Positions 4,050 to 63,954 of a stretch of 64,000 nucleotides of DNA are shown piece after piece. The position numbers were made by a program, and so were the translations under genes. Positions within the stretch are counted from its first letter, which is position 1. Each line of letters begins with the position of its first letter. The notes beneath the pieces were generated by a model. The model was not told the DNA's origin, ran no database searches, and was given only the letters and a program-made list of their open reading frames with translations. Source of the DNA: a phage; the sequence record PZ452595.1, one strand, 5' to 3'.

Positions 4050-4268
4050 TCATTTTACACCGTTCCAAATTGTTTCAACCACAGATTTTAAACCATTTTG
4101 ATGAATATCAATTCCGACTACTGTCATCAAATAGATTCCAACTACAACTGAACCTAAGGCAAAAATCAGCATGAAAATGAATAAAGCCGGAAAAATATTA
4201 TCGAAAAACCATTCAATAAATGTAAAAGCACTGCGTTTACGCTTCATATTTTCCTCACATAAATCCAA
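4050..4268 (-). CDS. small membrane protein (72 aa)
   Basis: ORF track; long hydrophobic segment FPALFIFMLIFALGSVVVGIYLMTVVGI. Confidence 0.55.
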   Translation of the reverse strand: MDLCEENMKRKRSAFTFIEWFFDNIFPALFIFMLIFALGSVVVGIYLMTVVGIDIHQNGLKSVVETIWNGVK

Positions 4269-4368
4269 AGTAAACGTTTAATACATCAATCATTAAAACG
4301 ATTGGGAATATACTCAAAACTATTAGTATTATAACTACATTCCATATAGCTTTAACAATCTTTTTCAT
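4255..4368 (-). CDS. small membrane peptide (~37 aa)
   Basis: Internal ATG after conserved GGAGGAAC SD; track ORF (to 4464) is a read-through of the promoter cassette. Confidence 0.4.
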   Translation of the reverse strand: MKKIVKAIWNVVIILIVLSIFPIVLMIDVLNVYFGFM

Positions 4369-4396
4369 TTTCTGTTCCTCCGTAGTTGATAGGGTA

Positions 4397-4426
4397 ATAG
4401 TACCACGGAAGAACAGTCTTGTAAAC
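4397..4426 (-). promoter_or_regulatory. T4-type early promoter
   Basis: GTTTACA - 17 nt - TACTAT followed by conserved 5' UTR and GGAGGAAC SD. Confidence 0.55.
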
Positions 4427-4432
4427 AACTTT

Positions 4433-4531
4433 TTAAAAATATTCGTAATAAATGTGAATACCAACTACTACCGCTGAAACTTGCACAACCCACCACGCAC
4501 AAGCAATAAGTACAGAATTCAAAATTTTCAT
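4433..4531 (-). CDS. small hydrophobic peptide (~32 aa)
   Basis: Hand-translated MKILNSVLIACAWWVVQVSAVVVG...; ATGA coupling to upstream peptide ORF. Confidence 0.35.
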   Translation of the reverse strand: MKILNSVLIACAWWVVQVSAVVVGIHIYYEYF

Positions 4532-5371: not shown

Positions 5372-5566
5372 TTACTTGAATTGTGCAATTCTTTTCTCTA
5401 GACATTCAGCATAAGATTTCATTGAGATAAACTGCGAAAGTAACAGTTCTTGCTCAACTGCATTAACTGTTAGAAACTTTGCGCTTTCTAAAAATTTGCT
5501 CAGTGCATTAATTTTGAGCATTAATTGATCGTATTCTTCTTTTACTCGTGCTTGATAACCTAACAT
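5372..5566 (-). CDS. hypothetical protein (64 aa)
   Basis: ORF track; followed by UUCG hairpin. Confidence 0.55.
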   Translation of the reverse strand: MLGYQARVKEEYDQLMLKINALSKFLESAKFLTVNAVEQELLLSQFISMKSYAECLEKRIAQFK

Positions 5567-8732: not shown

Positions 8733-8936
8733 TTAATTCATATTACGCTTAATAACTTCAGCAACTTCTAGTAGTTCATCTTTAGTTGCGGTGTCGGATT
8801 GAATTTTATCTCTAATATCTTTAAAGCGGTTTTTAAATTCTTCGGCTTCTCCCATATCGAAAAAGCGTTGAATGATTCTATATTCTCGATGAACTGCTTT
8901 ATCAAAAAGTTCTAAATTTACTTTATATGATTTCAT
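8733..8936 (-). CDS. hypothetical protein (67 aa), rIIA.1-like position
   Basis: ORF track; SD GAGGA; early promoter just upstream. Confidence 0.6.
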
Positions 8937-12717: not shown

Positions 12718-13209
12718 TTATGCATAGCGAGCTTTGCTGTAGTGTTTAATCCAACTTTCAGGAATGACTTTGTATGTTCCTAAAAATACCGCGTTGTATA
12801 ACTTAACGCCATCTTCTACCCATTGATCAGTAATGTATGCACACATGGCGCGAGTACGGTTAACAACCCCTTCCTCACCTTCAGTAAATTCAAACTCATA
12901 AGGAGCAACGAACTTAATAGCTTGACCGAGTTTCCACTTAAAGTCTACGCCTACATGCGAAGTATCAATCGTTTCAATTCCTTTAGCAGGAACAGCTTTT
13001 AAAAACGCAGACTCAAGAAATTTCGCACGAACATAGCCAAACTGAGGTTTAGACTTTCCATCTTTAGGAATGATACGCACTTTTACTTCAGAATCTTCAT
13101 CTTTAACACCGTGTTTAAGCTGAATGCTTACAACTTCAACCAATTTTCCTGCTGCTTTAGAACGGGATTTATCAGATACACGAGCAATTTCACCGATATT
13201 AATAATCAT
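12718..13209 (-). CDS. motB: MotB-like DNA-binding protein
   Basis: 163 aa; N-terminus MIINIGEIARVSDKS and position fit T4 MotB by recall. Confidence 0.65.
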   Translation of the reverse strand: MIINIGEIARVSDKSRSKAAGKLVEVVSIQLKHGVKDEDSEVKVRIIPKDGKSKPQFGYVRAKFLESAFLKAVPAKGIETIDTSHVGVDFKWKLGQAIKFVAPYEFEFTEGEEGVVNRTRAMCAYITDQWVEDGVKLYNAVFLGTYKVIPESWIKHYSKARYA

Positions 13210-13285: not shown

Positions 13286-13828
13286 TTAATTCAAAATAGC
13301 TACCACTGCACTACGAGGTACTACGCTAAAATCACCTGCATGAACAACGTTCAGAAGTTCAACACCATCTTCAATCCACTGGTCTGTTACCCAACCACAG
13401 ACCGAAATAAATGGGGTCTTGATAGCTACTGCACGAGTCAAAAGGTCAGTAGGATCAACTTCTTGGAAGAGGATAATCTCTGCTTCAAAGACTATAGTTT
13501 TAATTACTTCATCATTATCTAAGCGATGTGCTCGAATCACGTAAGCTTTATTCTTATCATACCAATTACTTTTTGAAAAACTTTTAACCACAAACTCACC
13601 TTCACCAAAAACACTGGTCAATGCTTTATAACCCAAATTTAGTTCAGTAGTTTTAATTTCAGTTTCAACCAGTTTGTAGGTTTTGCCAGTTTCGATGGTC
13701 CGAGCAGTCATAAATGTTTCCTTAATTTCTAATGGTTTAACAAGAGTGCCGTACATGCTTGCTATATCCATATCAAACGGTTTATCTACAGGATTCGGTG
13801 TGTATTCAGGATTATAATTAAATTTCAT
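13286..13828 (-). CDS. MotB paralogue (180 aa, shared C-terminal domain)
   Basis: C-terminal TDQWIEDGVELLNVV aligns with TDQWVEDGVKLYNAV of 12718..13209. Confidence 0.6.
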   Translation of the reverse strand: MKFNYNPEYTPNPVDKPFDMDIASMYGTLVKPLEIKETFMTARTIETGKTYKLVETEIKTTELNLGYKALTSVFGEGEFVVKSFSKSNWYDKNKAYVIRAHRLDNDEVIKTIVFEAEIILFQEVDPTDLLTRAVAIKTPFISVCGWVTDQWIEDGVELLNVVHAGDFSVVPRSAVVAILN

Positions 13829-14406: not shown

Positions 14407-15090
14407 TTATCGTTTTGTTGGAAGAGACAGAGGATCGCATTCTTCCTCTGACGGAGCATCTTCAAGACCCATAGCGTATCGCAAAGCATACTTCATCATC
14501 AGGATGTCTTTCGCACAGTCATGAATAGAATCATGTGCAACGAATCCATCTAAGGTTCCCTTTGGAAGAGGACATGTGGTCATATCACGAACAAGCAGAA
14601 GTGCTTCAATTCTGGTACGAATATCACGCTGATTCCAGAATTTACACGGTTCTAACTTAAATGTGTCAAGCTCATTCTCAGAAACACCATTAAGACGTTG
14701 AATATCACGAATGAGATCGACTAAAATTGGAAAATCAAACGACATTCCGCGACACCAGCCTTGAGATTTCCAAGGATCGATATTATGTGCATTGATGTAA
14801 TCATTAAATTTTGTAATACCATCGATAGTGCTTACATCTTCATCTGATGGTGCAATATTTTTTCTAGCTTCAGGAGATTGATTTTTCCACCATTCGATAG
14901 TGCTTTTAGTAAAAAGACGATGTCCTTTTTGGCTTTTTAAATCAAATTTGATTTTAATGCCACGTGAAACTAATTCATCAAACGTTTCAACTACTTCTGG
15001 ATTAGGGTCAAAAGCAATTACAGCCAAATCAATAACAGCTGCTTTTTCACCGCTTCCCATTGTTTCAAAATCTATAATAAAATCAAACAT
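14407..15090 (-). CDS. dexA: DexA, exonuclease A
   Basis: 227 aa as T4 DexA; acidic exonuclease motif FIIDFETMG. Confidence 0.85.
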   Translation of the reverse strand: MFDFIIDFETMGSGEKAAVIDLAVIAFDPNPEVVETFDELVSRGIKIKFDLKSQKGHRLFTKSTIEWWKNQSPEARKNIAPSDEDVSTIDGITKFNDYINAHNIDPWKSQGWCRGMSFDFPILVDLIRDIQRLNGVSENELDTFKLEPCKFWNQRDIRTRIEALLLVRDMTTCPLPKGTLDGFVAHDSIHDCAKDILMMKYALRYAMGLEDAPSEEECDPLSLPTKR

Positions 15091-15347
15091 TAAATTTTCC
15101 TCGCTAAATCACGAATTTGATCTACAGTATAGTCTTGAATATAAACTTTATTGATAGGCTCATCAATAAATTTTGCCATAGATTCAATGTCTTTTTGTAT
15201 TTCTTCAAGACTGTATACTATCTTTAAAGCTTTTTCGCGAATAGTAATATTTTCAGGACCCTGATTTTCTTCAATGACAGCTTTAACATTTGTCATAAGA
15301 GATTTAAATTGGTACCAACTTAATTCAATCATTAATAATCGCCTCAT
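15090..15347 (-). CDS. hypothetical small protein (85 aa), member of tandem trio
   Basis: ORF track; shares LEEIQKDI-type motif with neighbour. Confidence 0.5.
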   Translation of the reverse strand: MRRLLMIELSWYQFKSLMTNVKAVIEENQGPENITIREKALKIVYSLEEIQKDIESMAKFIDEPINKVYIQDYTVDQIRDLARKI

Positions 15348-15585
15348 AAAGATAGCTAATTTCGCCTAAAACATAATCATTAATTGTAACAGTTTTCACT
15401 TCACCACAAAAGAATTCTAACGCAATTAAATCTCGTTCAATTTCTTCTAATTGAAGCATCAACTTACTAGATTCAATTTTTACAGTTTCACGATTTTTAC
15501 CATGAGCAATTTCATAAATTTCGCTAACTTTATCCTGAAGAAGATAAAACTGATCTTTAGTTATTTCCACGAATAGCTTCCTCAA
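15325..15585 (-). CDS. hypothetical small protein (86 aa), member of tandem trio
   Basis: ORF track; LQLEEIERDL motif. Confidence 0.5.
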   Translation of the reverse strand: MRKLFVEITKDQFYLLQDKVSEIYEIAHGKNRETVKIESSKLMLQLEEIERDLIALEFFCGEVKTVTINDYVLGEISYLYEAIIND

Positions 15586-15817
15586 ATTTAATTAGTAATT
15601 TACAGACACTTTCATCTAGTGTAATTACCGTATCTGTATTACTGTGATATGATTGTTTTTCAATTCGTTTAATTGCTAATATAGTATCACTTATAAGATA
15701 AAGCTTATGAAGGAGCTCAGCTCCTGTTACCATAACATTAAGATTATCTTGCTTATTAGTATGCTTCCTTATACCATCTATTAGACGATTTAAATATTTT
15801 GAATTGATGTTAATCAT
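15557..15817 (-). CDS. hypothetical small protein (86 aa), member of tandem trio
   Basis: ORF track; overlaps neighbours by ~25 nt. Confidence 0.5.
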   Translation of the reverse strand: MININSKYLNRLIDGIRKHTNKQDNLNVMVTGAELLHKLYLISDTILAIKRIEKQSYHSNTDTVITLDESVCKLLIKFEEAIRGNN

Positions 15818-19803: not shown

Positions 19804-20274
19804 CTAGCGATAAAAACCAAATTGACGATTAGCTTCAATAATCTTTCTTTCTTCTTCGGACATTCTCCAGCGTAGTCCAACGTCAAAATGAGCCCAGACC
19901 ATCTTAACAAATGCATTTATATCTTTAATATCTTCAATAATGAATGTTTTACTTTTAAAAGGCTGACTCGCTAATTTAACTTTATCATCTTCAAACAGGT
20001 CAAAAAGACCATATTCATGAGCTCTTTTATAGCCTTTAATAGTTAAAGCTTCAGAAGAAGAAAACGGTGAATCAGTATTCTGCAAAATATCTTCAGTATG
20101 CTTTATAATTAGAATAATATTTTCTGGATATTTTCTTTCTTTTATATCTTTAATTAAAAAATCCGGATTTTCTGCTAAAGGAATAATTAATGAGCATTTT
20201 TTATCAAGTGTATTTACTGATTTACCTTCTTTAGACATAAATTCTATTGAATAATGTTTTGCTACTTCAATCAT
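19804..20274 (-). CDS. hypothetical protein (156 aa)
   Basis: ORF track. Confidence 0.55.
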
Positions 20275-20427
20275 GGGATTTCCTTTTGCCTACTAATGGA
20301 CCATCGGGAATTTTGTTTTCCTGGATATATTTCTCATTTTCTTCCATCATTTTACTACCAATTTTAAGAAGCAAATCCAGTGCTTCATTTGCTTTAGCTT
20401 TAGCCTCTTCCAGCGTCATATCTTTGT

Positions 20428-20631
20428 TCACGATTTATCCCCATAGATGTCTCTCATCAATTTAAGCGCTGAGCGTTCTAATTTCTTTTCTTTCTCAGCA
20501 CTAATCATTGATTTCATCCATTCTTCTGATTCGTTCTGCATTTCTTTATTTGCTTGTTCAACCCAACCATCATCAATGTACATTGAGTTTGGTCTATTGA
20601 ACCATTCAAGAATCTTCTTGAGAGCTTTCAT
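20428..20631 (-). CDS. hypothetical protein (67 aa)
   Basis: ORF track. Confidence 0.5.
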
Positions 20632-52152: not shown

Positions 52153-53154
52153 TTACTTAATTAACTGTAAAGCTTGTTCAAGACGATCAAGACGATTAAC
52201 AGATTCTTCCCAAATCCTTTTAGCCTGCTCATATTCTTTCTGCGCTTTATTAGAAATTTCTAGAACTTCTTTATAAGCTTTTTCTAATGCAATAACTTCT
52301 GGACGAATTTCTATCGGTTCAGGTGAATCGTCAAGACATTCCATTAGTTCCTCAAGGGTAGTTTCTTCTTTAGGAGTATTCACAATTTCATCACATTTTT
52401 GCTGGTAAATTTCTTTATCAGTCAGTGAGTACGCACACTTTACTTCACGAAGACTAACTACAATTTTATATCCTTCCCAGCCGCATATATTCTTAAAAGG
52501 ATATGTATGAATATTTTCTACTGTTTCCATACAAAGTAATGCGGTCTCTAATTGACGAGTTATAGTGCTAGCAATTGAGAAAAATTTATTAATATTCTTT
52601 TGGTTAGTTTCTGGTGTAAAAAATCTGTAATTAATAAAAATAGCTACTTTGTTTTTATCAAGCTCATATTCTTCTGCTATAATCATATCATCAGCTAATG
52701 GATGAATTTGACGATAATCGCCATAACATAATTTAGAAGCTGATTTTAGAATTTGCTTCGTAAAACTCCTAAATTCACTAACCCAACGACGAGTAAAAAT
52801 ATTCTCAGGGTCTTCTTTATTATTAAGATGATAAGAATTAACATCACCGAACCAATTATATCCTACTACATCTTTGGTTCGTTTAATTTCTTTCCCAAAT
52901 TTACTAAGAATATCTTGATTAACTAAATATGAAAGAAGACGAGACCCTTTAAAGGTTTCCTTAATATCATCTTTATCTGCACGACTAGAAATTTTATGAA
53001 CTTCATGAATAAATTTGCTGGAAGAAACAATACTTGCATCAGTATTATTGAGCCATTGATTGATAATGGAAATAACGCTATTCTGACTAGACATAGGTTT
53101 AACTTTATCATCAATAACGCTATTGAATGATTTGATATATTCGTTACGAGTCAT
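52153..53154 (-). CDS. hypothetical protein, paralogue family member 2 (~333 aa)
   Basis: ATG with GGAG SD (track start 53190 reads through promoter); FTKQILKSASKLCYGD core; coiled-coil tail. Confidence 0.6.
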   Translation of the reverse strand: MTRNEYIKSFNSVIDDKVKPMSSQNSVISIINQWLNNTDASIVSSSKFIHEVHKISSRADKDDIKETFKGSRLLSYLVNQDILSKFGKEIKRTKDVVGYNWFGDVNSYHLNNKEDPENIFTRRWVSEFRSFTKQILKSASKLCYGDYRQIHPLADDMIIAEEYELDKNKVAIFINYRFFTPETNQKNINKFFSIASTITRQLETALLCMETVENIHTYPFKNICGWEGYKIVVSLREVKCAYSLTDKEIYQQKCDEIVNTPKEETTLEELMECLDDSPEPIEIRPEVIALEKAYKEVLEISNKAQKEYEQAKRIWEESVNRLDRLEQALQLIK

Positions 53155-55613: not shown

Positions 55614-56141
55614 TTATGCGAGTACCGTCTTTAACCGTTCTTCAAACTTCCGAAGAGTATTTTGGCGTTCAGCTCTTTGCTTTTTGTAAGTTTCAATACG
55701 CTCTGAAATGAGAGTGTATCGTTCATTTACTGATTCTTTCATAAAATCAGGAATTTCACGAGAAGCTTTAATCTCGTCAAATTTATCAATAACAGCTTGC
55801 TCTTCAGCAATTAAGTTATCATACATCAAAATATCTTTCTTGATGAACTCAATATCTTCTTGAGTTACACGAGATAACTTAGATGCTTTATCCTTTTTGT
55901 ACTGTTCGTTAGTATCACGAGACCAGTGTAATGTACGATTTTTATTCGTATTCTTGTAAATTTCTACAATACCAATCTCATCGATAATAACGATCCAATT
56001 CCAACGGGATTTGTAAATTTGTCCTCCATCAACAGTGATTTCACCTCCGATTGAGATGTCATTAAAGAACTTGCTTTGTGCTTCAGATTTAAATTTACCA
56101 TCATTGTAGTTTACCAAGTTGAAAATATCTTTAGCATTCAT
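55614..56141 (-). CDS. hypothetical protein (~175 aa)
   Basis: ATG after conserved GGAGGAAC SD; track N-terminal extension is promoter read-through. Confidence 0.6.
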   Translation of the reverse strand: MNAKDIFNLVNYNDGKFKSEAQSKFFNDISIGGEITVDGGQIYKSRWNWIVIIDEIGIVEIYKNTNKNRTLHWSRDTNEQYKKDKASKLSRVTQEDIEFIKKDILMYDNLIAEEQAVIDKFDEIKASREIPDFMKESVNERYTLISERIETYKKQRAERQNTLRKFEERLKTVLA

Positions 56142-56169
56142 TTTCTGTTCCTCCGTAGTTGATAGTTGT

Positions 56170-56199
56170 ATAGTACCACAGAGGAACAGTCTTGTAAAC
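56170..56199 (-). promoter_or_regulatory. T4-type early promoter
   Basis: GTTTACA - 17 nt - TACTAT; same cassette as 31236. Confidence 0.6.
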
Positions 56200-56201
56200 A
56201 A

Positions 56202-57687: not shown

Positions 57688-58701
57688 TCATTTATAATAA
57701 CTTCGGTGGTTTTCAAGATAGACCTTCTCAAGGAAGTCATCCCAGAAACCCATGTCTACTTTTTGCTGCATACCATTCTTAGAAGCTTCAGTAGATGCTG
57801 CTTCTACTTGATCGACCACATCTTCCAAAAACTCTTGAACCGTTTTAAATGGATGTTTACCCAACTTCACGTCGAGAATAAATGGAGCATCTTGGAGTGG
57901 ATAAACCAGGTCACCAGTTTTGTAAATTTCCAATAGTTGGAGTCCACCACGACAAGCATGACTCAGAGCTTTCCAGTCAATACCTTCATTGGCTTCGGCC
58001 TTACGAGCGCGTTCACCATATTCAGCATCTAATTTGTTCAGTGACTGCTTAAGCTCAATAAGAGAAAGAGTTGTCTGATATTTACGACCCAACACTGTGT
58101 AAAACATCTGTGGGCCTGTTTTCTCATGATTATGGAACACCCATTCACAGAATTCGTTTTCTGGAAGACGATGCTTAATATCTTCAACTTTAGTACGACG
58201 CTGCTTAATAGAACCATCTTCTTGGTAATCAACCCATTGCTCAGGGATTTGATTAACTACTTTCAATACATCACGTAATGCAGCCAAACGAGAACCCTTG
58301 ACACCGTATTTAGAAGCTTGCTTGCGGACATATCCTAAATATGATTTCATGTTAGTCGTATAAAAACGAGAACGGTTGTCTTGGATAAACTTCCACACAT
58401 CAGGCAAATCAGATTTAACCACTAGTTCAGGTGGAGTGTGAAGCATATCTAATGCTACGGTTTCACCATCTGCTGCTAATTTAAAGAAATACTTAAGACT
58501 GTATAGTTCATGGTCAATATCATCTTTAGTGTTTTTAGATGATGTGTTGTTGGTATTTTTACTCATATGCTCTTTGACGTTTCCGATAAGAATATCGCGA
58601 GCAGGAGGAACAAAGATTTCTTTAAAATCTAAGTCAGATTCTGGGGTAGAAGTTCCATACAGATGACTACCAAAATAGCTTTTCATTACTGTTTTCATCA
58701 T
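57688..58701 (-). CDS. pol-beta-superfamily nucleotidyltransferase-like protein, uncharacterised
   Basis: N-terminal GSHLYGTSTPESDLDF fits hG[GS]x9-13Dx[DE]; 337 aa. Confidence 0.6.
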   Translation of the reverse strand: MMKTVMKSYFGSHLYGTSTPESDLDFKEIFVPPARDILIGNVKEHMSKNTNNTSSKNTKDDIDHELYSLKYFFKLAADGETVALDMLHTPPELVVKSDLPDVWKFIQDNRSRFYTTNMKSYLGYVRKQASKYGVKGSRLAALRDVLKVVNQIPEQWVDYQEDGSIKQRRTKVEDIKHRLPENEFCEWVFHNHEKTGPQMFYTVLGRKYQTTLSLIELKQSLNKLDAEYGERARKAEANEGIDWKALSHACRGGLQLLEIYKTGDLVYPLQDAPFILDVKLGKHPFKTVQEFLEDVVDQVEAASTEASKNGMQQKVDMGFWDDFLEKVYLENHRSYYK

Positions 58702-59161: not shown

Positions 59162-59683
59162 TTATCCTTTCATTGAAGGCGTAACGGTTGTTAAATACTT
59201 AATCATAGCTTCAGCTTCTGATTTTGATAATGAAATTTCTCCATTGTTTTGACGAATAGAAATAAAATCCGGATGACGGTCACCACCAGCTTTTAAAACA
59301 CACATATAAGTATCAACTTCGCCTTCAATATTTGAAATGATTGAAGCAGTTCCACATGAATGCGGTTTTTGATAAATCAATACAGCTTTTCTTCCACCGT
59401 TTGACTGCTCATAGGCTTTTAATACATCAAGCAAATCAGTTCTTTTATCAATAGCTAAAATGTTGTTTTCATCTTCAATGTTAAATCCTTCGGATACTTC
59501 ATAAAGCGTTACCCATAAATCACCAATGTCAATAACAGCATTTACTTTTCCACGGCTTTTAAGAGTATGACAAATTTTCTTGATTTCGTCATAACTCATT
59601 TTAATAATATCATCTCCTTGACTAAGGAAGATGTCATTTTTAAATTCAACACGAATTAAACCACTTCCACTTGAAATAAACAT
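59162..59683 (-). CDS. hypothetical protein (173 aa), tandem paralogue A
   Basis: C-terminal SKSEAEAMIKYLTTVTPSM aligns with neighbour. Confidence 0.55.
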   Translation of the reverse strand: MFISSGSGLIRVEFKNDIFLSQGDDIIKMSYDEIKKICHTLKSRGKVNAVIDIGDLWVTLYEVSEGFNIEDENNILAIDKRTDLLDVLKAYEQSNGGRKAVLIYQKPHSCGTASIISNIEGEVDTYMCVLKAGGDRHPDFISIRQNNGEISLSKSEAEAMIKYLTTVTPSMKG

Positions 59684-59689
59684 ATTTCC

Positions 59690-60244
59690 TCACTTTGAAA
59701 TCATAGTTGGAATAACAGAATCAAGATAAGTCTTTAGTGCAATAGCTTCGTCTTTGGTAAATGTGACAATATGTGCTCGAGAATCATCAATTTGACGAAT
59801 AGTTAAGACGTCTCCATCTTCATAACATTTTGATACATTTAAAACAGTTTCATCATTCTGATCGCAAGCGTTAGTAATAATAGCATTGCAATTTTTAAGC
59901 CATTTTAGACTGTGTTTTCTTTCATTAGAATAATAAAAATATTTAATCTTAGTTATAAAATTATCCCAATTATTAATTGATAAGCATATTGACTCGCTTT
60001 CAATGTTAAATCCTGGGCATAAAGAATAAAAATGAATTTTATGCTCATCATTAATGCTTACAATTTTATCAGTATAAGAATTTTCAATTTGGGTTAAATG
60101 AATAATTTCGTTAGGCGTAAAATATAGCATATCGTCTTCTTGTGTCAAACGATACATATTATTTACTTTTTCTATGGTCAATTCACCAAAAAGTGAACTA
60201 ACTTCTAATACTAATCGTTTCATATTAATCCTTTTTAATGGCAT
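59690..60244 (-). CDS. hypothetical protein (184 aa), tandem paralogue B
   Basis: C-terminal TKDEAIALKTYLDSVIPTM; shared GFNIE motif. Confidence 0.55.
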   Translation of the reverse strand: MPLKRINMKRLVLEVSSLFGELTIEKVNNMYRLTQEDDMLYFTPNEIIHLTQIENSYTDKIVSINDEHKIHFYSLCPGFNIESESICLSINNWDNFITKIKYFYYSNERKHSLKWLKNCNAIITNACDQNDETVLNVSKCYEDGDVLTIRQIDDSRAHIVTFTKDEAIALKTYLDSVIPTMISK

Positions 60245-60503
60245 GAATTTGTTCTAAAATTTTAGAGTATTCCTTTATATCAGATTTACGTACAATCGAT
60301 ACACTATAAGGCATACTATCGGTGTCTTTTATAAAGCGTTCCAAATGACACTCTAACAAAATTTCTGGATTATAAATCGTGTACATCAAATTACCTGTTG
60401 CTCCACGATATTGACAGATTTCTACTGATTGAGCATCATTCCACAATTTTGTTAAGACTAAATCACCTACTTCTAATTTAGGAAAGCCCATGTTATTCAC
60501 CAA
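60225..60503 (-). CDS. hypothetical protein (92 aa)
   Basis: ORF track. Confidence 0.5.
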   Translation of the reverse strand: MVNNMGFPKLEVGDLVLTKLWNDAQSVEICQYRGATGNLMYTIYNPEILLECHLERFIKDTDSMPYSVSIVRKSDIKEYSKILEQIHAIKKD

Positions 60504-60678
60504 TTAAAGTTTCAATATAAGAATCAAGATTTACTTTAGCTTCTTCCATAAGAGTTTTGTATTTAATCTTGTTAGCATGTCCGGAGAAAGCTGATTCATC
60601 AATAACTGTTGCTGTATGAACAGCTTTGCTATATGTTTCAATTAATTCTCTTAATTTAAAAGCCTGCTCACTTGTCAT
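60493..60678 (-). CDS. small helical protein (61 aa), member of small-protein family
   Basis: ORF track; SD GAGGAG; MTSEQAFKLRELIETYSKAV. Confidence 0.5.
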   Translation of the reverse strand: MTSEQAFKLRELIETYSKAVHTATVIDESAFSGHANKIKYKTLMEEAKVNLDSYIETLIGE

Positions 60679-60782
60679 TACATACTCCTCTGAATCATAT
60701 CAATAATGTTATTCACCAAATTATAAGTAAACATTGGGTAATTATATTGAATCATCACATACACAACAAACAAAACTTTCAT
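60678..60782 (-). CDS. small hydrophobic peptide (~34 aa)
   Basis: Hand-translated; AAGGAG SD; stop overlaps next ATG (TAATG); follows early promoter 60811-60840. Confidence 0.4.
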   Translation of the reverse strand: MKVLFVVYVMIQYNYPMFTYNLVNNIIDMIQRSM

Positions 60783-60810
60783 TCTCTTCTCCTTGGCAGT
60801 TGACAAGATT

Positions 60811-60840
60811 ACTATACCATAACCTTGCCAACTTGTAAAC
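60811..60840 (-). promoter_or_regulatory. T4-type early promoter
   Basis: GTTTACA - 17 nt - TATAGT. Confidence 0.55.
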
Positions 60841-60842
60841 CA

Positions 60843-61016
60843 TTAAATGACGTTTTCGATAAAATTCTGAAGCTTTGTATGAGCATCAACCATGATTTTC
60901 ATTTCTTCTTTGGCGAAAGCTATACCTCTTTCCCGAGAAGAACATTCATAGTCAGAAACTGCATTAGCGTATTCTTCAATTAGCTTCATTAAAAACATCT
61001 GCTTTTCAGTTTTCAT
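60843..61016 (-). CDS. small helical protein (~57 aa), member of small-protein family
   Basis: Hand-translated MKTEKQMFLMKLIEEYANAV...; paralogous to 60493..60678. Confidence 0.45.
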   Translation of the reverse strand: MKTEKQMFLMKLIEEYANAVSDYECSSRERGIAFAKEEMKIMVDAHTKLQNFIENVI

Positions 61017-61200
61017 TATTCCACCTAATCATTTCAAGATATTGAACTAACTTAGCTTTAGATTTATCCAAATCCTTTTTAGCTGCTTCTATACCGTCGT
61101 ATGAATATCCTTCACAATGCTCAACTGCTAATTGATATGAATCTATTTCAATATCATGCGCTAATTTAATGATTTTTTCAAACTGTTCGCGTGTTAGCAT
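61006..61200 (-). CDS. small helical protein (64 aa)
   Basis: ORF track; MLTREQFEKIIKL. Confidence 0.5.
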   Translation of the reverse strand: MLTREQFEKIIKLAHDIEIDSYQLAVEHCEGYSYDGIEAAKKDLDKSKAKLVQYLEMIRWNNEN

Positions 61201-61202
61201 AC

Positions 61203-61394
61203 TTACACTCTCGTATTATGATCGATAATTTCATCAAGAAACATATCTAACGCTTCTACAGCATTATTAAATTTAGCTTCAAATTCTTCAATACCTGATA
61301 AACCTGATAAGGCAAAGTTAATGCGTTCCTCATCTGCTTTACGAATTAAAGCTACCAATTCCTTAATTTTATCCGCTTGTTCGATACTAATCAT
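61203..61394 (-). CDS. small helical protein (~63 aa)
   Basis: Internal ATG ([13 protein letters not shown]) overlapping upstream stop by 1 nt; track ORF to 61430. Confidence 0.5.
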   Translation of the reverse strand: MISIEQADKIKELVALIRKADEERINFALSGLSGIEEFEAKFNNAVEALDMFLDEIIDHNTRV

Positions 61395-61582
61395 TATTCC
61401 ACCACATATGAAAGAGAGAATATTGCACACGCCATGTGAGTTGCAACTTCATCACACATATTATAACGTTTCTTAAGAAGTTCTACAAGTTCTTCACTAG
61501 TAACTTCATCCATGTCGACGAAAAAATCACCATTAATGATGACGTAGATATTTCCTTCTTGATTGAGTGCTTCAATTTTCAT
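61394..61582 (-). CDS. small acidic protein (~62 aa)
   Basis: ATG after promoter cassette; track start 61627 is TTG read-through. Confidence 0.5.
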
Positions 61583-61610: not shown

Positions 61611-61640
61611 ATAGTACCACAGCTCAAACGGAAAGTAAAC
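61611..61640 (-). promoter_or_regulatory. T4-type early promoter
   Basis: GTTTACT - 17 nt - TACTAT. Confidence 0.55.
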
Positions 61641-61677: not shown

Positions 61678-62064
61678 TTATTCGAGGGAAAGAAGATACT
61701 TACTCTGGTAAAACATTCCAGTAATATCATCTATCGTGCTTTGGATGGCTGGAGGCATTTCTTTATAAATGCTGTTAGATTGGTCTAGTATGCGATCAAT
61801 CATTTTAATTGTGTCGGTAGGAAGTTTACTGGCATCTGGAATTGAAGGTGTGTATTTTCTACCAGAATACCCCAAATACTGCTCACCAAATTTGTCAATC
61901 AAATCTGGTAACTCGGAAAAAATAAAATCGTATGCTTTGTGTCTAGCATAGCTTTTAGTTTCAAAATGCGCAGAATGAAAATAAGCTTGTGCAGCCATTA
62001 ATAAACCTAAGTATTCATCTGCCTTTGAAGGTTTTCCACTTTGTGAAAAGTCGCTGAATTTCAT
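61678..62064 (-). CDS. hypothetical protein (128 aa), rI.-1-like position
   Basis: ORF track; 4-nt overlap with rI; hairpin downstream. Confidence 0.55.
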
Positions 62065-62366: not shown

Positions 62367-62579
62367 TCATTTTTGTCCTGTATTTACTTTATGCCGATGC
62401 ACGGCCTTAACTTTATCAAGGTATTTTTCAAAATTTCGCAATCTAGTATAGTCTGCCGGAGATTGGTTGAGTGATACTTCTCGACGCAAAGCTGAAATGA
62501 TATTTCCAACTTCCCTACGAATTTCATCTAATTGAAGCACAGTAAGATTGCGAAGTTGCTTTTCAGTTAATTGTAGCAT
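62367..62579 (-). CDS. hypothetical protein (70 aa)
   Basis: ORF track. Confidence 0.5.
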
Positions 62580-63204: not shown

Positions 63205-63393
63205 TTAGTCCTTAGTTAAATTTTCTAAATATGTTTCTAAATCATTTTCAGCTTTATCGATAGATTTTACTAATTCGTAATATGTTTCGGCATCTCCATA
63301 TTCAGAAGATATTTCAAAAGACAAATCCTTTTCTAAACTAATAATTTCACCAACTAAAAATAATATTTCGTTCTTTTGTTCGCGAGTAATCAT
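63205..63393 (-). CDS. small helical protein (62 aa)
   Basis: ORF track; MITREQKNEILFL resembles small-protein family. Confidence 0.5.
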   Translation of the reverse strand: MITREQKNEILFLVGEIISLEKDLSFEISSEYGDAETYYELVKSIDKAENDLETYLENLTKD

Positions 63394-63575
63394 AAGGAAT
63401 TTATATAATCAATGAGTTCTTGTTCTTTATTATCGAATTCTTTAGAAAGTTCTTCGTATTCGTCAGTATTAAAAGGACCGCATTCATTACAAACTTTTTC
63501 CAATTCACTATTTTTATCCATAACTTCGTGGATAAGAGAAAAGAGTTTGTCTTTTTGTTCTTTGCTTAGGCTCAT
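63390..63575 (-). CDS. small helical protein (61 aa)
   Basis: ORF track; MSLSKEQKDKLFSL; ATGA coupling. Confidence 0.5.
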   Translation of the reverse strand: MSLSKEQKDKLFSLIHEVMDKNSELEKVCNECGPFNTDEYEELSKEFDNKEQELIDYINSL

Positions 63576-63745
63576 ATATTAATTTCCAGAAGTTTTAAAA
63601 TAATTCGCTTTTGCTTAAATATTTCCATAGTTAAATGATCAGTATCTTTTTGACCAATTCCAATGGCAAAACCTTTATTAGCAGCGAGTTCAATTAAATT
63701 ATCAAGTTCACGTGACACTTCATATTGTAACTCAGAACTATTCAT
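63572..63745 (-). CDS. small protein (~57 aa)
   Basis: Hand-translated MNSSELQYEVSRELDNLIEL...; ATGA overlaps at both ends. Confidence 0.4.
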   Translation of the reverse strand: MNSSELQYEVSRELDNLIELAANKGFAIGIGQKDTDHLTMEIFKQKRIILKLLEINI

Positions 63746-63954
63746 TTCGGTTTACCTTCTTTAACGAAATCTGGATAAGGATAAAATCCCGAATAAAATC
63801 CTTCACCTTTATGATTGATGCATCCTTTATTAGAACAATAGCACCAATAATCGAAATCACAAGCCATTTCATCGTTGCATAAAGCAAAAACAACTGGCCA
63901 TTTACACTTTTCACAATGGGCATTTTTAAGAATACTAGTTTGGCTCATAACCAT
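63742..63954 (-). CDS. Cys-rich small protein (70 aa)
   Basis: ORF track; CEKCKW...CYCSNKGC; preferred over overlapping frame 63738..63923. Confidence 0.5.
   Translation of the reverse strand: MVMSQTSILKNAHCEKCKWPVVFALCNDEMACDFDYWCYCSNKGCINHKGEGFYSGFYPYPDFVKEGKPK

What the first reader, a model, noticed from the sequence alone, without database searches (positions are those of the whole stretch)
60493..61582. Dispersed family of ~60-aa helical proteins in translationally coupled arrays
Several small ORFs share an N-terminal pattern M-x-T/S-R/E-EQ-x2-K-h-x2-L plus a conserved ...IEEYxxAV... segment: 60493..60678 (MTSEQAFKLRELIETYSKAV), 60843..61016 (MKTEKQMFLMKLIEEYANAV), 61006..61200 (MLTREQFEKIIKL) and 61203..61394 ([13 protein letters not shown]). 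Further members appear at 63205..63393 (MITREQKNEILFL) and 63390..63575 (MSLSKEQKDKLFSL), and three ~85-aa tandem paralogues lie at 15090..15817. They are packed with ATGA/TAATG overlaps behind single early promoters. Arrays of small early proteins are the usual source of host-takeover and anti-defence factors.
Basis: seen in the sequence. Interest (0 to 1): 0.4.

Follow-up and report, generated by a model that had tools for sequence, protein, structure and literature searches.

The report
Six-copy small helical-hairpin family (DUF7438)
Six ~60-residue early genes around the thymidine kinase gene of this T4-like phage are true paralogues from an already catalogued family of unknown function (Pfam DUF7438); each is predicted to fold into a two-helix hairpin, so the family is real but ordinary.

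Summary
The window is a T4-like phage (Tequatrovirus, 98.5% identical to wV7).

**Family.** The six named ORFs are the T4/RB14 genes RB14ncORF101c, mobD.2a, mobD.3, mobD.4, tk.1 and tk.2. All six match Pfam PF24219 (DUF7438) at 52-69 bits against a cutoff of 25. Leave-one-out HMMs and profile comparisons against shuffled controls show the similarity is positional, not compositional.

**Structure and expression.** AlphaFold gives confident two-helix hairpins. T4 omics data detect MobD.3, MobD.4, Tk.1 and Tk.2 as proteins made from early RNA. Pooled dN/dS is about 0.18. The genes are dispensable in the laboratory.

**Distribution.** The family is narrow: 42 clusters among 1.84 billion representative proteins. 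Named hosts are T4-like phages of enterobacteria and Pectobacterium. Copy number varies, and copies sit at two syntenic spots, upstream of tk and downstream of rI.-1.

**Not members.** rI.1 and mobD.5 are not members. dexA.1, dexA.2 and dda.1 are a different family.

**Function.** No function is known. My best guess, which is inferred, is that these are acidic, oligomerising hairpins that bind host or phage proteins as accessory early factors.

The "host takeover/anti-defence" reading is untested. Novelty is low.

The parts
60493..60678 (-). DUF7438 member of subfamily B, orthologue of RB14ncORF101c (61 aa). It is absent from T4 itself.
   Evidence: PF24219 at 58.2 bits, E 1e-15. phrog_4859 at E 1e-38. 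RB14 annotation. AF2 hairpin with helices 3-28 and 34-60, pLDDT 87. Present in 193 phage records. Absent from T4.
60843..61016 (-). DUF7438 member of subfamily B, mobD.2a (57 aa). It overlaps the 3' end of mobD.3 by 11 nt.
   Evidence: PF24219 at 52.4 bits. phrog_2758. RB14 name. Profile match to the nc101 group at E 2.5e-4. Truncated to 38 aa in T4.
61006..61200 (-). DUF7438 member of subfamily A, mobD.3 (64 aa).
   Evidence: PF24219 at 66.5 bits. phrog_653. AF2 hairpin with helices 4-29 and 34-63, pLDDT 94.3. The T4 protein is detected early.
61203..61394 (-). DUF7438 member of subfamily A, mobD.4 (63 aa). Its start codon shares one base with the mobD.5 stop codon (TAATG). The loop half is highly polymorphic between phages.
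   Evidence: PF24219 at 55.5 bits. phrog_653. The loop half varies 7.2 times more than the open end among 42 orthologues. Only 58 of 505 records are 90% identical or more. The T4 protein is detected early.
63205..63393 (-). DUF7438 member of subfamily A, tk.1 (62 aa). It lies 1 nt upstream of tk and has an ATGA overlap with tk.2.
   Evidence: PF24219 at 55.6 bits. phrog_653. Present in 195 phage records. T4 Tk.1 is detected as a protein.
63390..63575 (-). DUF7438 member of subfamily A, tk.2 (61 aa). It has ATGA overlaps on both sides.
   Evidence: PF24219 at 69.2 bits. Profile match to tk.1 at E 1e-6. Natural tk.2(N-half)-tk.1(C-half) chimeras P0026 and P0090. 742 records carry a match, 573 of them below 60% identity.
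61611..61640 (-). Early-type promoter upstream of mobD.5: GTTTAC, then a spacer, then TGg-TACTAT. It would drive mobD.5, mobD.4, mobD.3 and mobD.2a.
   Evidence: Read directly from the sequence. It falls below the threshold of the simple scan. The T4 counterpart, the 'mobD.5 promoter', was shown by primer extension (PMC1702504).
60811..60839 (-). Early-type promoter TTTACA-17-TATAGT with an upstream TG. It would drive mobD.2, the 60493-60678 gene and downstream genes.
   Evidence: Scan hit with 10 of 12 matches. The position corresponds to just upstream of T4 mobD.2, which ends at 57932, so it probably matches the early promoters Pe57.9/Pe57954 named in PMC6024815.
61656..61673 (-). Intrinsic-terminator-like hairpin (AGTCTCC-TTCG-GGAGACT plus a T run) after rI.-1. 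It separates the rI operon from the mobD.5 unit.
   Evidence: sequence.
61394..61582 (-). mobD.5 (62 aa). It is the first gene of the transcription unit and is NOT a family member.
   Evidence: No DUF7438 hit; phrog_3024.
60678..60782 (-). mobD.2 (34 aa, hydrophobic). It is interleaved with the family genes and is NOT a family member.
   Evidence: RB14 annotation. No Pfam hit.
15090..15585 (-). dexA.1 (15090-15347) and dexA.2 (15325-15585). They are paralogues of each other and belong to a different family from DUF7438.
   Evidence: 30% identity over 83 aa, E 4e-9; hhalign E 3e-6. They match the two halves of phrog_1700. No Pfam hit. Score against the DUF7438 profile is within the null range.
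15557..15817 (-). dda.1 (86 aa). It is not shown to be related to dexA.1 or dexA.2 except through weak shared hits to phrog_5263. It is not DUF7438.
   Evidence: Pairwise E 0.06-0.13. phrog_5263 at E 1.4e-5.

Best explanation
Shown:
- The six ORFs are diverged paralogues (16-28% identity to mobD.3 in the six-sequence alignment) of one phage-specific family, Pfam DUF7438.
- They fall into two subfamilies: A is mobD.3, mobD.4, tk.1 and tk.2; B is RB14ncORF101c and mobD.2a.
- Each whole protein is a single antiparallel two-helix hairpin of 57-64 residues.
- They are real genes. Pooled dN/dS is about 0.18, their T4 orthologues are transcribed early, and four of them are detected as proteins.
- They are dispensable for growth on laboratory E. 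coli.
- They are accessory genes. Copy number and alleles vary between closely related phages, adjacent copies recombine into chimeras, and T4 itself has lost or truncated two copies.

Inferred:
- What is conserved across paralogues lies at the open end of the hairpin: the helix N-cap T-x-E-Q, then I10, L13, I/V14 and I17 packing against L51, Y/F54, L/I55 and L/I58.
- The hydrophobic stripe is wide (heptad positions a, d and e, with Ala at the mid-helix d positions). That is wider than a lone two-helix hairpin needs, and the proteins are acidic (family median pI 4.4, net charge -7).
- The most likely mechanism is therefore that the hairpins pair with themselves, with each other or with a helix of a target to form a four-helix bundle, and act stoichiometrically as small protein-binding modulators early in infection.
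- The divergent loop-proximal halves would set target specificity.
- Which target is bound, and whether the effect is host takeover, anti-defence or modulation of a phage enzyme, is unknown.
For: Homology:
- Pfam hits for all six.
- Leave-one-out HMMs.
- hhalign scores against shuffled and reversed controls.
- PHROG cross-hits.

Fold:
- AF2 pLDDT 94.3 for mobD.3 and 87.3 for nc101, each with two long helices.
- The best BFVD structural matches are family members in Merlin, VR25, IME523, EcS1 and Pectobacterium PM2.

Conserved a/d/e positions, the Ala positions and the polar motif.

Acidity.

Purifying selection: dN/dS 0.18 against RB14 and 0.19 against T4, pooled.

Expression:
- PMC9697503 supplement.
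- Promoters.

Dispensability:
- The nrdC.11-mobD.3 stretch was lost in viable reduced T4 genomes.
- Among T4 genes of unknown function, only frd.2 scored as important for fitness ('Fit') in CRISPRi-ART.

Accessory nature:
- 193 to 742 phage records carry each paralogue.
- Chimeras P0026 and P0090, truncations, and loop insertions and deletions.
- T4 lacks nc101 and has a 38-aa mobD.2a.
- Three copies in IME08, three or four in Merlin and three in phiA85, at the same two syntenic spots.

Narrow range: 42 clusters in 1.84 billion representatives.
Against: - Nothing tests oligomerisation or any binding partner. The monomer AF2 model says nothing about the assembly state.
- Loop-half hypervariability is strong only for mobD.4 (7.2 times) and mild for tk.2 (2 times). 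It is absent for mobD.3 and tk.1, so 'loop = specificity' is not a general signal.
- The dN/dS estimate rests on few substitutions (48 against RB14, 13 against T4).
- No phenotype is known for any member.
Confidence: 0.55

Rival explanations
1. The genes modulate phage proteins rather than host proteins. In this view the hairpins are small subunits, chaperones or regulators for phage enzymes encoded nearby, for example thymidine kinase or other nucleotide-metabolism proteins.
For: Copies sit immediately upstream of tk in four genera: Tequatrovirus, Dhakavirus, Moonvirus and Jiaodavirus. tk.1 ends 1 nt before the tk start codon. Tk.1, Tk.2 and Tk share the same RNA and protein timing class.
Against: Gene order in T4-like genomes is conserved in general, so synteny is weak evidence. 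tk.1 is missing from about two thirds of Tequatrovirus records that keep tk-region DNA. The mobD-side copies are not next to any enzyme gene. Variable copy number and alleles look like accessory genes, not enzyme subunits.
Confidence: 0.2
2. The proteins are Rop-like nucleic-acid binders. In this view hairpin dimers form four-helix bundles that bind RNA or DNA structures and regulate phage or host RNA.
Confidence: 0.07
3. The ORFs are translational relay or spacer ORFs. In this view what matters is that ribosomes traverse them and couple onto downstream genes, and the peptide products are irrelevant.
For: Overlapping stop and start codons (ATGA, TAATG, an 11-nt overlap). tk.1 and tk.2 have no recognisable Shine-Dalgarno sequence.
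Against: Amino-acid positions are conserved across paralogues at 16-28% identity while codons differ. Pooled dN/dS is about 0.18. AF2 folds are confident. Four T4 proteins are detected by proteomics.
Confidence: 0.05
4. There is no real family. In this view the resemblance is only the K/E-rich amphipathic-helix composition common to small phage proteins.
For: Pairwise BLAST between paralogues is mostly non-significant; the best pair, tk.1 against mobD.3, has E 0.03. Four long repetitive or compositionally biased proteins (489-3120 aa, 2-13 matched stretches each), probably spurious, also scored in the exhaustive profile search.
Against: The curated Pfam model hits all six far above its cutoff. 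Leave-one-out recovery works for every member. Real profile scores exceed column-shuffled and reversed controls. Other helical small proteins in the window (rI.1, 39.1-like, rIIA.1, RB32ORF110c, the dexA trio) do not score. Length is constant at 54-67 aa, with motifs in register at both ends.
Confidence: 0.02

Closest known systems
Pfam PF24219 (DUF7438), which overlaps PHROGs 653, 4859 and 2758: T4 genes mobD.2a, mobD.3, mobD.4, tk.1, tk.2 and RB14ncORF101c
   Same: It is the same family and the same genes. The six ORFs are 85-100% identical to annotated orthologues in wV7, T6, RB14, T2 and T4 and pass the curated threshold.
   Different: Nothing differs. The family simply has no assigned function and no paper names it. 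Grouping six copies per genome into two subfamilies at two syntenic spots is my description, not something I found stated elsewhere.
Rop (ColE1 repressor of primer), the archetypal 63-aa helical hairpin that dimerises into a four-helix bundle
   Different: There is no sequence relation. Rop binds RNA, whereas DUF7438 proteins are strongly acidic. The oligomeric state of DUF7438 proteins is untested.
Small early accessory proteins of T-even phages with known targets, e.g. AsiA (anti-sigma70), Arn (an acidic inhibitor of McrBC restriction), and Srh and Mrh (from my own knowledge)
   Same: They are early, small, non-essential in the laboratory, often helical and/or acidic, encoded in densely packed same-strand arrays, and act by stoichiometric binding.
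   Different: There is no homology to any of them. No target is known for DUF7438. Unlike those single-copy genes, DUF7438 is a multi-copy paralogous family.

Membership tests
Pfam DUF7438 (PF24219) | Full-length match to the curated HMM above the gathering score of 25 bits | tested here: met
   All six score 52.4-69.2 bits and cover model positions 1-56/57 of 57. rI.1, mobD.5, RB32ORF110c, the dexA trio and PseT.1 do not hit.
Pfam DUF7438 (PF24219) | Single-domain protein of about 55-67 aa, predicted to be all alpha-helical (two helices) | tested here: met
   Lengths are 57-64 aa. AF2 gives helices 4-29 and 34-63 for mobD.3 and 3-28 and 34-60 for nc101.
Pfam DUF7438 (PF24219) | Occurrence in T4-like (Tevenvirinae) phage genomes | tested here: met
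   The window is a Tequatrovirus. Relatives occur in Dhakavirus, Moonvirus, Jiaodavirus, EcS1, CkP1 and Pectobacterium PM2. There are only 42 clusters in the exhaustive search.
Host-takeover or anti-defence early effectors (functional class) | Early expression and dispensability on permissive laboratory hosts | tested here: met
   From the literature on T4 orthologues: early RNA and detected protein, early promoters, and deletable or not scored as important for fitness. None of this was tested for this phage itself.
Host-takeover or anti-defence early effectors (functional class) | A demonstrated host target, toxicity, or inhibition of a defence system | not testable with these tools
   There is no relevant match in PADLOC, NCBIfam or the PDB and no paper. 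This needs experiments.
Rop-like RNA-binding four-helix bundle | Homodimeric four-helix bundle | not testable with these tools
   Only monomer prediction is available. The wide a/d/e hydrophobic stripe is suggestive only.
Rop-like RNA-binding four-helix bundle | A basic or polar nucleic-acid-binding face | tested here: not met
   Net charge is -2 to -10 and pI 4.2-5.3 for the six proteins. The family median pI is 4.44.
'Helicase loader' (label of phrog_4859 and of RefSeq T6/EC121 for the 60493-60678 orthologue) | Homology to a known helicase-loader domain (gp59, DnaC/DnaI, or P-like) | tested here: not met
   The only family that passes a curated cutoff is DUF7438 in Pfam; NCBIfam gives nothing significant. 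T4-type gp59 is a separate gene of 654 nt (about 217 aa) elsewhere in the genome. The label appears only in database annotation.
'Molybdopterin-guanine dinucleotide biosynthesis protein MobD' (RefSeq label on T4 mobD.4 and on several hits) | Homology to Mob proteins of molybdenum-cofactor synthesis | tested here: not met
   No such Pfam or NCBIfam hit. In T4, mobD is annotated as an H-N-H homing endonuclease. The label looks like a gene-symbol confusion.

The most novel reading that the evidence does not exclude
DUF7438 hairpins may be a combinatorial scaffold. In this reading, paralogues homo- and hetero-pair through their conserved open ends into four-helix bundles. The divergent loop-proximal halves, which are hypervariable and mosaic in mobD.4 and strongly dimorphic in tk.2, present different surfaces to host immunity or host machinery. 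T-even phages would then carry a small, recombining repertoire of inhibitor modules whose copy number tracks the host defence landscape. Natural tk.2/tk.1 chimeras joined at the loop would be products of such module shuffling.
Probability: 0.1. Interest if true: 0.6.

Novelty: already known. Interest (0 to 1): 0.25.

Why it matters
The six genes add up to about 370 codons of conserved coding sequence with unknown function in one of the best-studied groups of phages. Knowing that they are one family, with a common hairpin scaffold and two syntenic insertion spots, means they should be deleted and tested together, because redundancy could hide single-gene phenotypes. If they prove to be host-directed inhibitors, they would be a compact, designable binding scaffold. 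As it stands, this result tidies up annotation and is not a discovery. It also exposes two propagated misannotations, 'MobD molybdopterin...' and 'helicase loader'.

Tried and rejected
Candidate extra members that I rejected:
- rI.1 (62367-62579) looked like a seventh member by eye (LTEKQ... and ...NFEKYLDKV). It has no DUF7438 hit, belongs to phrog_1826, and its profile score of 12.7 is within the null range.
- mobD.5 and RB32ORF110c are not members.
- The dexA.1/dexA.2/dda.1 trio is not a member set.
- Other small helical ORFs in the window belong to other families: 5372-5566 is crAss001_48-like and 8733-8936 is RIIA.1-like. 20267-20431 has no hit.

Searches that gave nothing useful:
- Pairwise BLAST alone was nearly blind to the family.
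- The search for related loci with the 40-sequence alignment failed because no conserved 7-10-column stretch exists.
- tblastn of the most distant metagenomic members P0137 and P0138 found no cultured phage.
- Their metagenomic contigs are too short (0.6-4.2 kb) to give context.
- The PDB sequence profile search had nothing below E 0.05.
- PADLOC and NCBIfam gave nothing.
- Literature searches for DUF7438, the gene names, and T4 small-protein toxicity screens found no functional study.
- The four long proteins in the exhaustive search (489-3120 aa, 2-13 matched stretches each) look like repeat or compositional false positives, judged from stretch counts and composition only.

A claim I did not keep: general 'hypervariable loop' behaviour holds only for mobD.4 and partly for tk.2.
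Full report
**Identity of the window.** The 59.5-64 kb stretch is 98.5% identical to Escherichia phage wV7 and about 97% identical to T6 and RB14; 559 phage records match it. Composition is uniform at 32-37% G+C, with negative GC skew throughout, as expected for minus-strand early genes of a T4-like phage.

Using the RB14 record, which carries T4-style names, the ORFs in the finding are:
- 60493-60678: RB14ncORF101c (called nc101 below)
- 60843-61016: mobD.2a
- 61006-61200: mobD.3
- 61203-61394: mobD.4
- 63205-63393: tk.1
- 63390-63575: tk.2

Between the two groups lie rI.-1, rI, rI.1 and tk. mobD.5 (61394-61582) and mobD.2 (60678-60782) are interleaved with the family genes. The ORFs at 15090-15817 are dexA.1, dexA.2 and dda.1, next to dexA and dda.

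**Is the family real?** Pairwise BLAST inside the window is almost blind to it. Only tk.1 against mobD.3 aligns end to end, at 33% identity and E 0.03. Profile methods are unambiguous.
- All six proteins hit the curated Pfam model PF24219 (DUF7438) across their whole length, at 52-69 bits against a cutoff of 25 and E 1e-14 to 4e-19. rI.1, mobD.5 and RB32ORF110c do not hit.
- PHROGs places mobD.3, mobD.4, tk.1 and tk.2 in phrog_653, nc101 in phrog_4859 and mobD.2a in phrog_2758, with weaker cross-hits among the three.
- As an independent test, I built an HMM from five members and searched all 505 ORFs of 30 aa or more on both strands. The omitted member was always the first non-training hit (E 3e-6 to 7e-3), and nothing else scored better than 0.05.
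- hhalign between alignments of the six orthologue groups gave scores of 10.6-33.8 (mean 18.6). tk.1-tk.2 had E 1e-6, mobD.3-tk.1 and mobD.3-tk.2 about 4e-5, nc101-mobD.2a 2.5e-4, and mobD.4-nc101 3e-3.
- The same comparisons with columns shuffled gave 9.5 +/- 2.0 (maximum 14.5). With one alignment reversed, which preserves composition and helical periodicity, the mean was 10.5.

Two subfamilies emerge: A is mobD.3, mobD.4, tk.1 and tk.2; B is nc101 and mobD.2a.

**What is conserved.** In a 40-sequence alignment that includes distant members, the positions that are 88% or more large-hydrophobic are 2, 10, 13, 14, 17, 44, 51, 54, 55 and 58 (mobD.3 numbering). Position 24 is 75% hydrophobic. Ala dominates at positions 20 and 47. 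The conserved polar residues are T/S3, E5, Q6 and K9, and there is a loop Gly at position 31.

This is a heptad a/d/e pattern on both helices. The best-conserved columns cluster at the open end of the hairpin, with a mean column entropy of 2.03 bits against 2.99 bits for the loop-proximal half. T-x-E-Q at residues 3-6 looks like a helix N-cap; that is my inference.

**Structure.** AlphaFold2 models mobD.3 as helices 4-29 and 34-63 (pLDDT 94.3, pTM 0.79) and nc101 as helices 3-28 and 34-60 (pLDDT 87.3).

**Are they genes, and when are they made?**
- Pooled over the six genes, dN/dS is 0.18 against RB14 (26 synonymous and 22 non-synonymous differences) and 0.19 against T4. The counts are small.
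- In the T4 time-resolved omics supplement (PMC9697503), mobD.3 and mobD.4 are classed 'early RNA, early protein'. tk.1 and tk.2 are 'early RNA, middle protein'. mobD.2a has early RNA and no protein value, and it is truncated in T4.
- Upstream of mobD.5 the sequence reads GTTTAC-N18-TACTAT with a TGg extension, at 61640-61611. PMC1702504 mapped a 'mobD.5 promoter' in T4 by primer extension and notes that its transcript is insensitive to RegB.
- Upstream of mobD.2 there is TTTACA-17-TATAGT with TG, at 60839-60811. In T4 this position lies just above mobD.2, which ends at 57932. It probably matches the early promoters Pe57.9/Pe57954, whose downstream genes rise two-fold or more without DksA (PMC6024815).
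- A terminator-like hairpin (61673-61656) separates rI.-1 from this unit.
- Gene junctions have gaps of -4 (tk.2), -4 (tk.1), -1 (mobD.4), +2 (mobD.3), -11 (mobD.2a) and -1 (nc101). tk.1 and tk.2 have no recognisable Shine-Dalgarno sequence, so translational coupling is plausible but inferred.
- No promoter for the tk.2/tk.1 pair lies inside the window.

**Dispensability.** Viable genome-reduced T4 lost nrdC.11-mobD.3 (PMC9825161). In the transcriptome-wide CRISPRi-ART screen of T4, the only gene of unknown function scored as important for fitness ('Fit') was frd.2 (PMC11879866).

**Distribution and dynamics.**
- An exhaustive HMMER search of 1.84 billion cluster representatives found only 42 proteins at E 1e-3 or better. 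Thirty-eight are 37-79 aa. The four long ones (489-3120 aa, 2-13 matched stretches each) look like repeat or compositional false positives.
- The word-indexed search found 109 clusters. All are orthologues of the six, and those with long contigs lie on contigs of about 165-171 kb.
- Scanning the rest of the wV7 genome with a family HMM found no further member (L004-L006). The one marginal hit is PseT.1 (76 aa): HMM E 1.7e-3, hhalign against the family E 5e-5, no Pfam hit.
- Other genera carry copies at the same two syntenic places, immediately upstream of tk and/or downstream of rI.-1. Dhakavirus IME08 has three copies, one of them unannotated. Moonvirus Merlin has three or four. Jiaodavirus phiA85 has three in tandem directly upstream of tk.
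- T4 itself has tk.1, tk.2, mobD.3 and a 60-aa mobD.4. Its mobD.2a is truncated to 38 aa and it has no nc101.
- Across the phage collection, tblastn finds nc101 in 193 records, tk.1 in 195, mobD.4 in 505, mobD.3 in 586, mobD.2a in 643 and tk.2 in 742.
- mobD.4 is 90% identical or more to the window copy in only 58 of 505 records, because its loop carries substitutions, insertions and deletions while both helices are nearly invariant. Its loop half varies 7.2 times more than its open end. Its synonymous divergence from RB14 (pS 0.40) far exceeds that of its neighbours (0-0.2), which points to allele replacement by recombination.
- tk.2 is likewise dimorphic, with 573 of 742 records below 60% identity.
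- Two natural proteins, P0026 from phage UFV-AREG1 and P0090, join the N-terminal helix of tk.2 to the C-terminal helix of tk.1 at the loop.
- Loop hypervariability is not general. The ratio is 0.4 for mobD.3 and 0.9 for tk.1.

**Mechanism.** What is shown is a multi-copy, early, dispensable, variably present family of acidic two-helix hairpins. The six have pI 4.2-5.3 and the family median is 4.44, against a median of 6.0 for other small proteins in the window.

From there I infer the following. The a/d/e hydrophobic stripe is wider than a lone hairpin buries, so the proteins most likely complete a four-helix bundle by pairing with themselves, with each other or with a target helix. They would then act as stoichiometric binders early in infection.

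The acidity argues against Rop-like nucleic-acid binding. Protein detection, dN/dS and residue-level conservation argue against mere relay ORFs. The constant position next to tk keeps open the rival that they modulate phage enzymes rather than host proteins.

No tool here can identify a partner. PADLOC, NCBIfam, the PDB and the literature are silent.

**The other ORFs in the finding.** dexA.1 and dexA.2 are paralogues (30% identity over 83 aa, E 4e-9; hhalign E 3e-6). They match the C- and N-terminal halves respectively of a 160-position PHROG (phrog_1700). dda.1 belongs to phrog_4967 and is tied to them only by weak shared hits to phrog_5263. None has a Pfam family and none scores against DUF7438. 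They should not be pooled with the ~60-aa family.

**Comparison with what is known, and verdict.** The six genes are orthologues of annotated T4 and RB14 genes and are members of a curated Pfam DUF, so the finding is 'already known' as a sequence family with unknown function.

Two database labels attached to members are unsupported. The first is 'molybdopterin-guanine dinucleotide biosynthesis protein MobD', placed on T4 mobD.4 and others; in T4, mobD is a homing endonuclease gene. The second is 'helicase loader', placed on nc101 orthologues and on phrog_4859. Neither has support from any domain match.

Interest is modest.

Noticed in passing
L005 25093-25323 (wV7 133092-133322, minus strand; outside the window): PseT.1 (76 aa) has family-like ends: MISWYQFEHLKGLIYE at the N-terminus and KDLHDYIQSLVE at the C-terminus. 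It scores against the DUF7438 profile (HMM E 1.7e-3; hhalign E 5e-5, score 24.7 over 52 columns) but has no Pfam hit. It may be a divergent seventh member with a longer loop.
   Followed up: partly
window 61203-61394 and 60493-60678; L008 2853-3035: There are two propagated misannotations. RefSeq calls T4 mobD.4 (and several of the hits) 'molybdopterin-guanine dinucleotide biosynthesis protein MobD'. RefSeq T6 and EC121, and phrog_4859, call the 60493-60678 orthologue 'helicase loader' (also labelled kilA). No domain evidence supports either label.
   Followed up: yes
window 15090-15585: dexA.2 and dexA.1 match positions 1-80 and 77-159 of a single 160-position PHROG profile (phrog_1700), and they are also paralogous to each other. 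This suggests that a tandem-duplicated single gene exists in some phages. Here the two ORFs overlap by 23 nt (15325-15347).
   Followed up: partly
P0026 and P0090: These are natural chimeric genes that join the N-terminal helix of tk.2 to the C-terminal helix of tk.1 at the loop, e.g. in phage UFV-AREG1. The result is one hairpin gene where the window has two.
   Followed up: partly
window 59162-59683 and 59690-60244: These two adjacent mobD.1-like ORFs (173 and 184 aa) are paralogues, with 29.5% identity over 176 aa and E 5e-10. RB14 annotates one of them as 'similar to mobD.1'.
   Followed up: no
window 60225-60491, 63742-63954, 61678-62064 and 5372-5566: Neighbouring small ORFs have recent Pfam families: Phage_tudor (PF24144), Phage_zn_bind (PF23895), DUF5856 (this is rI.-1, labelled 'starvation-inducible transcriptional regulator' in RefSeq) and crAss001_48-like (PF21825).
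   Followed up: no
window 4255-4464 vs 55614-56201; 12718-13209 vs 13286-13828: There are short but strong local protein similarities between otherwise different ORFs: 66% identity over 32 aa (E 1e-7) and 50% identity over 32 aa (E 4e-9). Both are unexplained. They could be shared terminal modules or recombination scars.
   Followed up: no
window 61203-61394 vs L001 3203-3406: Synonymous divergence of mobD.4 from RB14 (pS 0.40) is much higher than that of the flanking genes (0-0.2). This indicates a mosaic allele replacement confined to this ~190-bp gene.
   Followed up: partly
L002 9504-9686 (IME08 52289-52471): There is an unannotated 60-aa ORF between orf90 and mobD.1 of phage IME08. It is a weak DUF7438 match: local HMM E 1.5e-6, and Pfam 21.6 bits, just under the cutoff.
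   Followed up: partly
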